DNA of 64,000 nucleotides. Origin: Escherichia coli (GTDB lineage: Bacteria > Pseudomonadota > Gammaproteobacteria > Enterobacterales > Enterobacteriaceae). Positions within the stretch are counted from its first letter, which is position 1. Each line of letters begins with the position of its first letter. Shown here one piece after another: positions 34,407 through 38,335 of the stretch. A program made the translations under genes and the position numbers. The notes under the pieces are model-generated. The model worked only from the letters and a program-made list of their open reading frames with translations. It had not been told where the DNA came from and did no database searches. Where the stretch lies: NCBI RefSeq assembly GCF_045037415.1, contig NZ_CP173438.1; one strand, written 5' to 3'.

Positions 34407-35186
34407 TTAGTAGCTGCTGGCGCTCTTACCGTCGCCGTGGCCCAGAGCTTTCAGCAGGCTTGCCAGCAAGCTGGAAGCACCAAAGCGGTAGTGACGCGCA
34501 TCAGCCCAGTCAGCACCGAACAGTTCATCTGCAATGGCGAGATATTTCTGCGCATCTTCCGCAGTACGCACGCCGCCTGCCGGTTTGAAACCAACGGTTT
34601 TTTCTACGCCCATATCGCGGATCACTTCCATCATGATGCGCGCGCTTTCCGGCGTCGCATTCACAGCCACTTTACCGGTAGAGGTTTTGATGAAGTCAGC
34701 ACCCGCTTTGATGGAGATTTCAGACGCTTTACGGATCAGCGCTTCGTCTTTCAGTTCGCCGGTTTCAATAATCACTTTCAGCAGTACGTTCGCCGCAGCG
34801 CAAGCCTCTTTACAGGCTTTCACCAGGTCAAAACCAACCTGCTCGTTACCTGCCATCAGCGCGCGGTACGGGAACACCACGTCAACTTCATCGGCACCGT
34901 AGGCGATTGCCGCACGGGTTTCTGCCAGCGCGATTTCGATGTCGTCGTTACCGTGTGGGAAGTTAGTTACCGTAGCGATACGGATTTCCGGGGTGCCCTG
35001 CTCTTTCAGAGTTTTGCGAGCAATCGGGATAAAGCGAGGATAGATACAGATAGCGGCGGTATTGCCGACCGGAGTTTTGGCCTGATGACACAGTGCGATC
35101 ACTTTCTCATCGGTGTCGTCGTCATTCAGGGTGGTCAGGTCCATCAATTTCAGTGCACGCAGGCTGCTTGCTTTCAGATCAGTCAT
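34407..35186 (-). CDS. deoC: Deoxyribose-phosphate aldolase DeoC, 259 aa (start [12 protein letters not shown])
   Basis: ORF 34407..35210; ATG at 35184-35186 preceded by AGGAGAA SD. Confidence 0.96.
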
Positions 35187-35224
35187 TTCATTCTCCTGGC
35201 TTGTCGCCAATAAAATTCACCTTG

Positions 35225-35340
35225 CGAGTTTGTTAGTATTCTAACATCTACTCCGCAACACACTTCGATGTACATCACAATTAAGGAAATCTACTTACAA
35301 GTTTGCATCACTGTAATGCGATCTGGTTCAAATAATTCAC
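35225..35340 (-). promoter_or_regulatory. deo promoter-proximal region (deoP2): DeoR operator palindrome tgttagtattctaaca at 35231-35246 overlapping a TAGAAT -10, plus two CRP-like sites (about 35263-35284 and 35309-35334)
   Basis: Palindrome matching DeoR operator consensus TGTTAGAA.TACTAACA; TGTGA-containing CRP half sites. Confidence 0.7.
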
Positions 35341-35443
35341 TTTCAAATGAATGCGTCAGTGGTGGCAAACGCATCAGGATCAAAGTGAACATCACGAAAC
35401 TTCTTACAATGGCGCATCACCTTCGGCATAAAAGGAAAAGAAG

Positions 35444-36994
35444 ATGCCCACTTCTCATGAAAATGCACTGCAACAACGTTGCCAGCAAATTGTCACCAGC
35501 CCGGTACTTAGCCCGGAGCAGAAGCGCCATTTTCTGGCACTGGAAGCAGAAAACAATCTGCCTTACCCACAGCTGCCTGCCGAAGCCCGCCGCGCGCTGG
35601 ATGAGGGGGTAATCTGCGATATGTTTGAAGGTCATGCGCCGTACAAACCGCGCTATGTCTTACCCGATTACGCTCGTTTTCTGGCGCACGGTTCCGAATG
35701 GCTGGAGCTGGAAGGCGCGAAAGACCTTGATGACGCACTCTCTCTGCTGACCATTCTTTACCACCATGTACCGTCGGTCACATCGATGCCGGTCTACCTG
35801 GGGCAACTGGATGCGTTGTTGCAACCGTATGTTAGAATTCTAACACAAGACGAGATCGATATTCGAATAAAACGTTTCTGGCGTTACCTCGACAGAACCC
35901 TGCCAGACGCCTTTATGCATGCCAATATCGGTCCGTCTGATTCGCCCATTACCCGTGCAATATTACGTGCAGACGCAGAGCTGAAGCAGGTTTCACCGAA
36001 CCTGACCTTTATCTACGATCCTGATATCACCCCTGATGACCTGCTGCTGGAAGTGGCGAAAAACGTCTGTGAATGTAGCAAACCGCACATCGCCAACGGT
36101 CCGGTGCATGATAAAATTTTCACAAAAGGGGGCTACGGGATTGTGAGCTGTTACAACTCACTGCCGCTGGCGGGTGGTGGCAGCACGCTGGTACGCCTTA
36201 ACCTGAAAGCCATTGCCGAGCGCAGCGAATCGCTGGATGACTTCTTTACGCGCACTCTACCGCACTACTGCCAACAGCAGATCGCCATCATCGATGCGCG
36301 GTGTGAATTCCTCTATCAACAATCACACTTCTTTGAGAATAGCTTCCTGGTGAAAGAAGGGTTGATTGATCCTGAACGTTTTGTGCCGATGTTTGGCATG
36401 TATGGGCTGGCGGAAGCGGTTAACTTGCTGTGTGAAAAAGAAGGGATTGCCGCACGCTACGGTAAAGAGGCCGCCGCAAATGAAGTGGGTTATCGCATTA
36501 GCGCGCAACTGGCGGAGTTTGTCGCCAATACCCCCGTGAAATATGGCTGGCAAAAACGCGCCATGTTACACGCACAGTCGGGGATCAGTTCCGATATCGG
36601 CACCACGCCGGGCGCGCGTTTGCCATATGGTGATGAGCCAGATCCGATTACCCATCTGCAAACTGTCGCCCCGCATCATGCTTATTATTATTCCGGCATC
36701 AGCGACATTCTGACGCTCGACGAAACCATCAAACGTAATCCGCAGGCGCTGGTACAGCTTTGCCTCGGTGCCTTTAAAGCCGGAATGCGTGAATTTACCG
36801 CCAATGTCAGCGGTAACGATCTGGTTCGCGTTACCGGTTATATGGTGCGTTTGTCGGATTTAGAAAAATATCGCGCCGAAGGTTCACGCACCAACACCAC
36901 CTGGCTGGGAGAAGAAGCCGCACGCAACACTCGTATTCTGGAACGCCAGCCGCGCGTGATAAGCCATGAACAGCAGATGCGCTTTAGTCAGTAA
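35444..36994 (+). CDS. yjjI: Glycyl-radical-enzyme-like protein YjjI (DUF3029), 516 aa; substrate unknown
   Basis: ORF 35444..36994; C-terminal RVTGY motif (codons at 36827-36841) resembling glycyl radical fingerprint RVSGY; followed by overlapping radical-SAM activase gene. Confidence 0.85.
35829..35844 (-). promoter_or_regulatory. Second DeoR operator palindrome (tgttagaattctaaca; deoP1-type) located inside the yjjI coding sequence, 598 bp from the proximal operator
   Basis: Perfect 16-bp palindrome TGTTAGAATTCTAACA containing TAGAAT; spacing to proximal operator matches the known ~600 bp separation of deoP1 and deoP2. Confidence 0.7.
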
Positions 36995-37829
36995 GATTAT
37001 CCCCTTCTCCTGCGTTGACGGGCCAGGCAGTCGTCTGGCTCTGTTTTTGCAGGGCTGCAATCTGCGCTGCAAAAACTGTCACAATCCGTGGACGATGGGA
37101 CGTTGCAATGACTGTGGGGAGTGCGTGCCACAGTGTCCGCATCAGGCGTTGCAGATTGTTGACGGCAAAGTGGTGTGGAACGCTGTGGTTTGCGAGCAGT
37201 GTGATACCTGCCTGAAGAGGTGTCCGCAACATGCCACGCCAATGGCGCAATCCATGAGCGTGGACGAAGTGCTTAGCCATGTCCGCAAAGCGGTGCTGTT
37301 TATTGAAGGGATAACGGTAAGCAGCGGCGAAGCCACGACCCAACTGCCGTTTGTAGTGGCGCTGTTTACTGCTATCAAAAACGATCCGCAACTGCGCCAC
37401 CTCACCTGCCTGGTGGACAGTAACGGTATGTTGAGCGAAACCGGCTGGGAAAAATTACTCCCGGTGTGCGACGGCGCAATGCTCGATCTCAAAGCGTGGG
37501 GGAGCGAATGTCATCAGCAATTAACCGGACGCGATAATCAGCAGATTAAGCGCAGCATCTGTTTGCTGGCAGAGCGCGGTAAGCTGGCGGAACTGCGTTT
37601 GCTGGTGATCCCTGGCCAGGTGGATTATTTGCAACACATCGAAGAACTGGCGGCGTTTATCAAGGGACTCGGCGATGTTCCGGTACGCCTGAACGCGTTT
37701 CATGCCCACGGCGTGTATGGCGAGGCGCAAAGCTGGGCGAGCGCCACGCCGGAAGACGTTGAGCCGTTGGCTGATGCGTTAAAGGTGCGCGGGGTGAGCC
37801 GGTTGATATTTCCGGCGCTCTATTTGTGA
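36966..37829 (+). CDS. yjjW: Radical SAM glycyl-radical-enzyme activating protein YjjW, 287 aa
   Basis: ORF 36966..37829; CX3CX2C motif (CNLRCKNC) plus two ferredoxin-like Cys clusters ([24 protein letters not shown]); overlaps yjjI by 29 nt. Confidence 0.88.
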
Positions 37830-37831
37830 CA

Positions 37832-38335
37832 TGCCGGATACGGCCTACGGTTCGGCACAGACTTGTAGGCATGATAAGACGCGACAAGCGTCGCATCAGG
37901 CATTATGCGCCGACTGCCGGATGCGGCGTGAACGCCTTATCCGGCCTACGGTTCGGCACAGACTTGTAGGCATGATAAGACGCGTCAGCGTCGCATCAGG
38001 CATTGTGCGCCAACTGCCGGATGCGGCGTGAACGCCTTATCCGGCCTACGGTTCGGCACAGACTTGTAGGCATGATAAGACGCGTCAAGCGTCGCATCAG
38101 GCATTGTGCGCCAACTGCCGGATGCGGCGTGAACGCCTTATCCGGCCTACGGTTCGGCACAAACCTGTAGGCATGATAAGACGCGTCAAGCGTCGCATCA
38201 GGCATTGTGCGCCAACTGCCGGATGCGGCGTGAACGCCTTATCCGGCCTACGGTTCGGCACAAACCTGTAGGCATGATAAGACGCGACAAGCGTCGCATC
38301 AGGCATTATGCGCCGACTGCCGGATGCTGCCTACG
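37832..38335. repeat. BIME/REP tandem array: about 5 copies of a 100-101 bp unit, each built from two inverted REP sequences
   Basis: Direct repetition of gccggatgcggcgtgaacgccttatccggcctacggttcggcaca(g/a)ac(t/c)tgtaggcatgataagacgcg(a/t)caagcgtcgcatcaggcatt(g/a)tgcgcc with period 100-101 bp between convergent yjjW and yjjV. Confidence 0.9.

What the first reader, a model, noticed from the sequence alone, without database searches (positions are those of the whole stretch)
35225..35850. DeoR operator embedded in the yjjI coding sequence
Two DeoR-type operator palindromes are present 598 bp apart: tgttagtattctaaca (35231-35246, about 45 nt upstream of deoC) and the perfect palindrome tgttagaattctaaca (35829-35844). 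The distal one lies about 385 nt inside the divergently oriented yjjI ORF, where it encodes V-R-I-L-T. A distal deo promoter firing from there would transcribe antisense across the yjjI 5' region and yjjI promoter, so nucleoside induction of deo could interfere with yjjI expression. The yjjI codons here are constrained by a DNA-binding site.
Basis: partly seen in the sequence, partly recalled or inferred. Interest (0 to 1): 0.4.

Follow-up and report, generated by a model that had tools for sequence, protein, structure and literature searches.

The report
Known deo operators inside yjjI
The two palindromes are the long-known DeoR operators O2 and O1 of the E. coli deo operon, so the finding is real but not new; comparison across species adds that O1 and a third operator have frozen the codons of the neighbouring gene yjjI.

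Summary
The palindromes lie at 35231-35246 and 35830-35845, which is one base off for the distal site and 599 bp apart, not 598. They match the published DeoR operators O2 and O1 letter for letter. The 599 bp is the textbook deoP1-deoP2 spacing. That a deoCABD promoter sits inside yjjI is already in print, and a RegulonDB promoter entry plus a sigma-70 ChIP-seq peak place the deoP1 start at about 35830 on the minus strand.

A third operator-like site (OE, 36109-36124) lies 279 bp further into yjjI.

What I add is a comparison of 87 yjjI sequences. O1 and OE sit at fixed codon offsets in 79 of them and are both absent from 8. The O1 codons rank 1st of 511 six-codon windows for synonymous-site conservation, and OE ranks 2nd. 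O1 uses the rare codons AGA and CTA. Lineages without the operators vary these codons freely and encode different amino acids there. So the codon-constraint claim is supported.

The claim that deoP1 interferes with yjjI expression fits the geometry but is untested. A DeoR roadblock acting in the opposite direction is equally possible.

Verdict: already known; low to moderate interest.

The parts
34407..35186 (-). deoC coding sequence (deoxyribose-phosphate aldolase), first gene of deoCABD
   Evidence: ORF list; TIGR00126 at 294.7 bits; RefSeq annotation
35231..35246 (-). DeoR operator O2, overlapping the -10 of deoP2. It reads TGTTAGAATACTAACA on the deo strand, with TGT-TAGAAT forming an extended -10. 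The inferred deoP2 start is about 35231.
   Evidence: Identical to the published palindrome quoted in PMC5326754. A homologous site within 5 mismatches is present in all 76 scorable loci that have O1 and an adjacent deoC.
35264..35279 (.). CRP-1 site of deoP2, centred at -40.5 from position 35231
   Evidence: CRP pattern match. The ETEC CRP ChIP-seq motif TGTGATGTATATCGAA was assigned to the yjjI/deoC intergenic region. The -40.5 position agrees with the literature as I remember it.
35317..35332 (.). CRP-2 site of deoP2, centred at -93.5. The CytR target lies between CRP-1 and CRP-2.
   Evidence: CRP pattern match. CytR/CRP control of deoP2 is described in PMC3454398.
35187..35830 (-). The 644-nt deoP1 leader. 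It is antisense to yjjI codons 1-129, to the yjjI 5' UTR and promoter region, and to the deoP2 control region.
   Evidence: The start is derived from the RegulonDB entry in Supplementary Data 5 of PMC6389913, mapped through K-12. The extent is inferred from the geometry.
35444..36994 (+). yjjI coding sequence (YjjI-family glycyl radical enzyme), host of O1, deoP1 and OE
   Evidence: TIGR04040 at 786 bits; FNR-activated according to PMC3688515 and PMC2634741
35830..35845 (-). DeoR operator O1, overlapping the extended -10 (TGT-TAGAAT) of deoP1. The transcription start is at 35830 on the minus strand. In yjjI it spans codons 129-134: taT GTT AGA ATT CTA ACA.
   Evidence: It is the published palindrome. 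The sigma-70 ChIP-seq summit maps to 35823 and the RegulonDB start to 35830. It sits at the same codon offset in 79 of 87 yjjI sequences. It has the lowest third-position entropy of all 511 six-codon windows.
35855..35883 (-). Conserved island upstream of the deoP1 -10, at about -25 to -53. It covers the weak -35 region and an A/T-rich stretch, AAACGTTTTAT on the deo strand. It uses the rare codons CGA141 and ATA142. Its role as a promoter upstream element is inferred.
   Evidence: Second-lowest 16-nt entropy window in the gene. Third positions are 71-77 of 77 identical from 35869 to 35881. Synonymous-conservation percentile 0.014.
36109..36124 (.). Third DeoR operator, OE (TGATAAAATTTTCACA; 12 of 16 bases match O1), 279 bp beyond O1 and 878 bp from O2. 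It spans yjjI codons 222-227: aaT GAT AAA ATT TTC ACA.
   Evidence: It was recovered without prior knowledge as the most conserved 16-nt window of yjjI. Its co-occurrence with O1 is perfect: 79 with both, 8 with neither. Lineages without operators encode D-A-V-F-G or other residues there, with free codons. The published 279-bp distance is from my memory of Valentin-Hansen 1986 and Dandanell 1987. PMC4217526 gives 'up to 900 bp naturally'.
36966..37829 (+). yjjW (YjjW-family glycyl radical enzyme activase), overlapping the end of yjjI by 29 nt
   Evidence: TIGR04041. The overlap region is the fourth most conserved window in yjjI.

Best explanation
The two palindromes are O2 (35231-35246) and O1 (35830-35845), the DeoR operators that overlap the -10 elements of the two tandem deoCABD promoters, deoP2 and deoP1. 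A third operator, OE (36109-36124), lies 279 bp further upstream.

Established mechanism, from the literature: a multimeric DeoR repressor binds these separated sites and loops the DNA between them (O1-O2 599 bp, OE-O1 279 bp), shutting both promoters at once. Deoxyribose-5-phosphate releases DeoR. deoP2 is also controlled by CytR and cAMP-CRP.

Because yjjI is transcribed divergently from deoC and starts only 257 bp away, deoP1/O1 and OE lie inside the yjjI reading frame, and the 644-nt deoP1 leader is antisense to the first 129 yjjI codons and to the yjjI promoter region.

Shown here: the operator DNA is under strong selection that overrides coding preferences. Synonymous sites are frozen, rare codons are retained, and the encoded residues differ from those in lineages without operators.

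Inferred, not shown: any effect of DeoR or deoP1 on yjjI expression.
For: The sequences are identical to the published DeoR palindromes TGTTAGAA-TACTAACA and TGTTAGAA-TTCTAACA. The 599-bp spacing equals the published deoP1-deoP2 distance.

A paper states that one deoCABD promoter lies 'in an upstream gene, yjjI'. Its Supplementary Data 5 gives a sigma-70 ChIP-seq summit at 4,614,709 and a RegulonDB promoter entry at 4,614,642 for deoC. Mapped through the colinear K-12 sequence, these fall at window 35823 and at a start of 35830. Placing the deoP2 start 599 bp downstream, at 35231, puts the two CRP sites at -40.5 and -93.5.

Comparative test: O1 within 2 mismatches is at codon offset +386, and OE within 2 mismatches at +665, in 79 of 87 yjjI sequences. 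Both are absent (6 or more mismatches) from the other 8. Third-position entropy is 0.046 bits at O1 and 0.11 at OE, against a gene mean of 1.146; these rank 1st and 2nd of 511 windows.

Proteus and other operator-free lineages show Y-V-G-x-L-T and D-A-V-F-G with varied codons. AGA is 2.7% of Arg codons and CTA 2.4% of Leu codons locally.
Against: Nothing contradicts the identification. There are limits. DeoR occupancy and deoxyribose-5-phosphate induction were not tested here and rest on literature; the primary papers (Dandanell and Hammer 1985, Valentin-Hansen 1986) are not held in the library. The published 279-bp position of OE is from my memory. The deoP1 start is derived from a table column that I interpret as start minus 60, checked against thrL and hns from memory. 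The sigma-70 peak was reported as specific to an evolved strain, not wild-type MG1655, which is what I would expect if DeoR represses P1 in the wild type.
Confidence: 0.95

Rival explanations
1. Besides controlling deo, the intragenic elements regulate yjjI-yjjW. Either deoP1 firing collides with, or produces RNA antisense to, yjjI transcription. Or DeoR bound at O1 and OE, looped to O2 around the yjjI promoter, blocks yjjI elongation or initiation (induction raises yjjI).
For: The geometry allows it. The deoP1 start at 35830 faces the yjjI promoter region, and the FNR ChIP peak maps to about 35351. The 644-nt leader covers yjjI codons 1-129 and the yjjI promoter. O1 and OE lie at +386 and +665 of the yjjI ORF, so yjjI transcription must pass two DeoR sites. 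The arrangement has been kept from Escherichia to lineages at 66% protein identity.
Against: I found no expression, transcription-start or ChIP data linking DeoR or deoP1 to yjjI. None of the 29 papers mentioning yjjI, nor the supplements I could search, address it. The conservation is fully explained by deo regulation alone. The two proposed effects have opposite signs and could cancel. yjjI is expressed anaerobically, under conditions where deoP1 activity is unknown.
Confidence: 0.25
2. The invariance of the O1 and OE codons reflects constraints of YjjI itself (protein structure, codon-dependent folding, mRNA structure), not DNA binding.
For: Neighbouring peptide motifs, for example KRFWRYLD, are conserved at the protein level in all lineages.
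Against: Operator-free lineages keep the flanking protein motifs but vary both the codons and the residues at exactly these positions. Protein-level constraint does not freeze third positions or favour the rare AGA and CTA codons. O1 and OE are present or absent together, and with an O2-type site upstream of deoC. The frozen sequence equals the published operator.
Confidence: 0.03
3. The palindromes are chance occurrences with no function.
For: None beyond the fact that short palindromes do occur by chance.
Against: Expected 7e-4 sites within 1 mismatch per 64 kb, against two observed. The sites are conserved in position across about 80 species and are identical to experimentally defined operators.
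Confidence: 0.01

Closest known systems
E. coli deoCABD control region: deoP1/O1, deoP2/O2 and OE with the DeoR looping repressor (Dandanell and Hammer 1985; Valentin-Hansen et al. 1986; Dandanell et al. 1987; Amouyal et al. 1989)
   Same: It is this system. The operator sequences are identical, the O1-O2 spacing is 599 bp, the third site is 279 bp beyond O1, the -10 elements lie inside the operators, and the CRP sites sit at -40.5 and -93.5 of P2.
   Different: Nothing differs. The window comes from a non-K-12 E. coli with 24 substitutions relative to K-12 in 35100-36300, none of them in the operators.
Auxiliary operators inside coding sequences: lac O2 within lacZ, gal OI within galE (from my own knowledge)
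   Same: These are repressor sites embedded in an ORF that cooperate with a promoter-proximal operator by DNA looping, so one stretch of DNA serves as both operator and codons.
   Different: Those sites lie in the first gene of the regulated operon itself. Here O1 and OE lie in a different, divergently transcribed gene, and O1 is also a promoter.
Conserved functional intragenic promoters and binding sites, such as intragenic FliA promoters (Fitzgerald et al. 2018, from my own knowledge) and conserved intragenic sigma-54 sites (PMC4591121, title seen)
   Same: A promoter inside a coding sequence is kept by selection, visible as conservation of wobble positions.
   Different: deoP1 is a classical, experimentally defined sigma-70 promoter combined with a repressor operator. 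The constraint here also changed the encoded residues (Gly131 to Arg or Lys; A-V-F-G to K-I-F-T).
Roadblock repression by an intragenic operator, for example PurR within purB (from my own knowledge), and transcriptional interference between face-to-face promoters, for example coliphage 186 pR/pL
   Same: The geometry is the same: a repressor site downstream of a promoter, and convergent promoters with overlapping transcripts.
   Different: No effect on yjjI has been shown.

Membership tests
DeoR operators of the E. coli deo operon (O1/O2/OE) | 16-bp palindrome TGTTAGAA.TTCTAACA (O1) or TGTTAGAA.TACTAACA (O2) | tested here: met
   Exact matches at 35830-35845 and, on the deo strand, at 35246-35231, compared with the sequences quoted in PMC5326754
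DeoR operators of the E. coli deo operon (O1/O2/OE) | O1 and O2 separated by 599 bp, upstream of deoC | tested here: met
   35830 minus 35231 is 599. PMC3334521 states '599 bp apart'. The deoC ATG is 45 nt from O2.
DeoR operators of the E. coli deo operon (O1/O2/OE) | Each operator overlaps the -10 of a sigma-70 promoter (deoP1, deoP2) | tested here: met
   TGT-TAGAAT lies inside both operators on the deo strand. The RegulonDB-derived start at 35830 and the sigma-70 ChIP-seq summit at 35823 support deoP1.
DeoR operators of the E. coli deo operon (O1/O2/OE) | Third, weaker operator OE 279 bp upstream of O1 | tested here: met
   TGATAAAATTTTCACA at 36109-36124 is the most conserved 16-nt window of yjjI and always co-occurs with O1. 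The published distance is recalled from memory.
DeoR operators of the E. coli deo operon (O1/O2/OE) | Bound by DeoR and released by deoxyribose-5-phosphate | not testable with these tools
   Literature only (summarised in PMC5326754). No genome-wide DeoR ChIP study is in the held library.
Regulatory DNA under dual (coding plus binding-site) constraint | Synonymous sites conserved far beyond the rest of the gene | tested here: met
   Third-position entropy is 0.046 bits (O1) and 0.11 (OE) against a gene mean of 1.146; ranks 1 and 2 of 511 windows
Regulatory DNA under dual (coding plus binding-site) constraint | The constraint is absent in lineages that lack the regulatory element | tested here: met
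   In 8 operator-free yjjI sequences (Proteus x4, L084-L087) both codons and residues vary
Transcriptional interference or antisense control of yjjI by deoP1 | Convergent promoters whose transcripts overlap | tested here: inconclusive
   The deoP1 start and direction are established. The yjjI start is unknown ('TSS not known'), and only the FNR peak position is available.
Transcriptional interference or antisense control of yjjI by deoP1 | yjjI expression changes when deoP1 is derepressed | not testable with these tools
   No data found
Roadblock repression of yjjI by DeoR | Repressor-dependent block of elongation at the intragenic operator | not testable with these tools
   Only the geometry is known: O1 at +386 and OE at +665 of the ORF

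The most novel reading that the evidence does not exclude
The DeoR/deoP1 elements embedded in yjjI do more than control deo. Through a DeoR roadblock or loop around the yjjI promoter, and/or through head-on deoP1 transcription, they would couple expression of the uncharacterised, FNR-activated glycyl radical enzyme pair YjjI-YjjW to deoxyribonucleoside availability. That would hint that YjjI acts in anaerobic nucleoside or deoxyribose metabolism. In distant lineages yjjI-yjjW also sits beside deoBD, nupC-family transporter genes and tatD-like genes.
Probability: 0.2. Interest if true: 0.45.

Novelty: already known. Interest (0 to 1): 0.2.

Why it matters
The elements are a textbook case of repression by DNA looping, so identifying them adds nothing new. 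The modest added value is twofold. First, it is a clean, quantified example of regulatory DNA overriding coding preferences in a neighbouring gene: synonymous sites frozen across about 80 species, rare codons kept, and amino acids replaced. Second, it is a reminder that any recoding, deletion or reporter work on yjjI (for example the Keio yjjI deletion) removes deoP1, O1 and OE and will change deo regulation. If DeoR or deoP1 also affects yjjI-yjjW, that would give a first regulatory clue to the function of an orphan glycyl radical enzyme.

Tried and rejected
1. The primary deo papers (PMC554662, PMC1167072) and Thomason 2015 (PMC4288677) are not held. Searches for '599 base' and '279 bp' found nothing.

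2. Genome-wide transcription-start supplements: Conway 2014 has none held, and Kim 2012 has no deoC or yjjI entries.

3. An FNR motif scan at 3 mismatches gave 316 hits and was uninformative. I did not locate the yjjI FNR box.

4. The antisense ORFs inside the deoP1 leader (35417-35635 and 35508-35738, minus strand) are rejected as genes. The first is codon-aligned with yjjI, and 65 of 77 species have stops in it.

5. The intragenic CRP ChIP site (35767-35782) shows no synonymous conservation (96th percentile), so it is probably fortuitous.

6. Rfam finds no RNA family in the leader.

7. The terminator-like hairpin on the minus strand at 35482-35470 is no more than chance would give: 2 found against 1.1 expected.

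8. A literature hit for 'deoC' plus 'intragenic' turned out to be the software name DEOCSU.

Full report
OBSERVATION. TGTTAGTATTCTAACA lies at 35231-35246, 45 nt upstream of the deoC ATG (35186, minus strand). The perfect palindrome TGTTAGAATTCTAACA lies at 35830-35845, not 35829-35844. The spacing is 599 bp, not 598. Allowing up to 3 mismatches, these are the only two matches in the 64-kb window, against 0.19 expected from shuffles. For 1 mismatch or fewer the analytic expectation is 7e-4. The window is E. coli, with stretches 100% identical to several clinical strains, and the genes are deoC, yjjI and yjjW by RefSeq annotation and by NCBIfam models. The distal palindrome begins at nt 387 of yjjI (35444-36994) and is read as taT GTT AGA ATT CTA ACA, that is Y-V-R-I-L-T.

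WHAT IT IS. On the deo (minus) strand the proximal site reads TGTTAGAATACTAACA and the distal one TGTTAGAATTCTAACA. These are, letter for letter, the two DeoR-binding palindromes quoted in PMC5326754 from Valentin-Hansen 1986, Dandanell 1987 and Amouyal 1989. PMC3334521 describes deoP1 and deoP2 as two promoters '599 bp apart' that DeoR locks by DNA looping. So the proximal site is O2 at deoP2 and the distal site is O1 at deoP1. Both operators contain TGT-TAGAAT, an extended -10 motif.

[quoted passage not shown] Supplementary Data 5 of that paper lists a sigma-70 ChIP-seq peak, with its summit at 4,614,709 (U00096.2), assigned to deoC (gene start 4,615,346), together with a RegulonDB promoter coordinate of 4,614,642. 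I read that column as start minus 60, which fits thrL and hns in the same table as I remember their starts. I aligned the window with K-12 MG1655. The two are colinear, with 24 substitutions in 35100-36300 and none in the operators. On this mapping the summit falls at window 35823 and the deoP1 start at 35830 on the minus strand, seven bases after TAGAAT. Placing the deoP2 start 599 bp downstream (35231) puts the two CRP-like sites, 35264-35279 and 35317-35332, at -40.5 and -93.5. Those are the classical CRP-1 and CRP-2 positions as I remember them. The first matches the CRP ChIP-seq motif reported for the yjjI/deoC intergenic region in ETEC.

From memory, the deo system has a third operator, OE, 279 bp upstream of O1. 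TGATAAAATTTTCACA sits at 36109-36124, exactly 279 bp from O1 and 878 bp from O2. This fits 'up to 900 bp naturally' in PMC4217526. An unbiased conservation scan recovered this site without using that recollection (see below).

COMPARATIVE TEST OF THE CODON-CONSTRAINT CLAIM. I fetched 80 yjjI loci, one per species, from Escherichia to Proteus, and 6 more distant ones through protein homologues. With the window itself that makes 87 sequences. O1 (2 mismatches or fewer) is at the same codon offset, +386, and OE (2 or fewer) at +665, in 79 of them. Both are absent (6 or more mismatches) in the other 8, and there are no mixed cases. Of the 79, 76 have deoC divergently adjacent with an O2-type site within 5 mismatches. 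In the other three, deoC runs off the contig end.

The 8 operator-free sequences are as follows:
- Four Proteus species, where serB-smp-yjjI replaces the deo block.
- One lineage with only deoBD adjacent (L085).
- Two lineages with no deo genes nearby (L086, L087).
- One lineage (L084) with deoC adjacent but no O1 or OE.

So the constraint tracks the operators, not mere adjacency to deoC.

In a codon alignment of 77 distinct operator-bearing sequences, mean third-position entropy is 1.146 bits. Codons 129-134 (O1) have 0.046 bits, rank 1 of 511 six-codon windows. Codons 222-227 (OE) have 0.11 bits, rank 2. The three lowest 16-nt windows in the whole gene are OE, a stretch at 35868-35883, and O1. 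The fourth is the yjjI/yjjW overlap.

O1 uses AGA (2.7% of Arg codons in this window's long ORFs) and CTA (2.4% of Leu). Operator-free lineages encode Y-V-G-x-L-T/S and D-A-V-F-G or other residues, with freely varying codons. Within operator-bearing lineages, codon 131 is GGA (Gly) in Hafnia, Edwardsiella and the 66%-identity group, and AGA (Arg) or AAA (Lys) in Enterobacteriaceae. That is a change towards the perfect palindrome at the cost of an otherwise conserved glycine. The half of O1 that carries the deoP1 extended -10 (35836-35845) is the invariant half.

The conserved stretch from about 35855 to 35883 lies at about -25 to -53 of deoP1. Its third positions are almost invariant and it keeps the rare codons CGA and ATA. 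I read it as the upstream part of deoP1, meaning a weak -35 plus an A/T-rich element. That reading is an inference, and part of the conservation is at the protein level (the KRFW motif).

HOW IT WORKS. The established part comes from the literature cited and from my own knowledge. Multimeric DeoR binds O1, O2 and OE and forms single or double loops, repressing initiation at deoP1 and deoP2 together. Deoxyribose-5-phosphate is the inducer. deoP2 is additionally anti-activated by CytR with cAMP-CRP. The geometric consequence, shown here, is that the deoP1 transcript has a 644-nt leader (35830 down to 35187) that is antisense to yjjI codons 1-129, the yjjI 5' UTR and the yjjI promoter region. yjjI is FNR-activated, and its ChIP peak maps to about 35351. 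What is not shown is any effect on yjjI. Two opposite effects are conceivable. DeoR bound at O1 and OE, looped to O2 around the yjjI promoter, would act as a roadblock that induction removes. I found no data bearing on either.

COMPARISON AND NOVELTY. This is not merely like the deo control region; it is that region. All sequence-level defining features are met, and DeoR binding itself cannot be tested with these tools. It works like other looping systems that have operators inside coding DNA, such as lac O2 in lacZ and gal OI in galE. The difference is that here the host ORF belongs to a different, divergent operon. The element is already known. The only increment is the quantified dual-coding constraint and the perfect phylogenetic co-occurrence of O1 and OE. 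I could not find this in the held literature, but it is an expected consequence of known biology.

VERDICT. Novelty: already known. Interest: 0.2.

Noticed in passing
window 35855-35883: A third island of synonymous-site conservation in yjjI, at about -25 to -53 of deoP1. It contains the palindrome AAACGTTT and the rare codons CGA141 and ATA142. It is probably the upstream part of deoP1, but a site for another factor is not excluded.
   Followed up: partly
window 35767-35782: A CRP-like site inside yjjI that matches a CRP ChIP-seq peak reported in ETEC (CGTACCGTCGGTCACA). This strain has T at 35767 where K-12 has C, which brings it closer to the CRP consensus. Its synonymous sites are not conserved across species (96th percentile), so it is probably fortuitous.
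   Followed up: yes
window 36090-36117: The plus strand of OE reads TGATAAAAT, an extended -10-like motif. The promoter scan paired it with TCGCCA at a 16-nt spacing. It would point in the yjjI direction, towards yjjW. DeoR half-sites resemble extended -10 elements in general.
   Followed up: no
window 36965-36994: yjjW starts 29 nt before the yjjI stop codon. This overlap is the fourth most conserved stretch of yjjI, which fits dual coding or translational coupling.
   Followed up: partly
yjjI codon 131 (window 35834-35836) across loci L001-L087: A glycine conserved in operator-free lineages, and in Hafnia and Edwardsiella (GGA), is Arg (AGA) or Lys (AAA) in Enterobacteriaceae. The change moves O1 towards the perfect palindrome, so DNA-level selection appears to have changed the protein.
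   Followed up: partly
L082, L084, L085, L087 (flanks of yjjI-yjjW): In distant lineages yjjI-yjjW sits next to deoCAB, deoBD, a nupC-family nucleoside transporter gene and a tatD-like gene. In Proteus the order is serB-smp-yjjI with no deo block. This could be conserved chromosomal backbone, or a hint that YjjI acts in nucleoside metabolism.
   Followed up: partly
L084 (yjjI at 70% identity, deoC adjacent): This lineage has deoC divergently adjacent and an O2-position sequence 5 mismatches from the consensus (TGTGACTATTTCAACA), but no O1 or OE in yjjI. It is either the state before the distal operators arose or a secondary loss.
   Followed up: partly
window 35482-35470 (minus strand): A weak terminator-like hairpin (GCAACGTTGTTGC followed by a T-rich tail) inside the deoP1 leader, antisense to yjjI codons 9-13. 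The count of such sites in the region is no higher than in shuffles.
   Followed up: no
window 37868-37946 (minus strand): An Rfam naRNA4 (REP-derived nucleoid-associated RNA) match at 77 bits, just downstream of yjjW.
   Followed up: no
protein P0006: A 574-aa database protein, 99% identical to YjjI, carrying both YjjI-like (PF11230) and DeoC (PF01791) domains, from a 2.9-kb contig. It is most likely a gene-calling or assembly artefact across the divergent yjjI/deoC junction.
   Followed up: no
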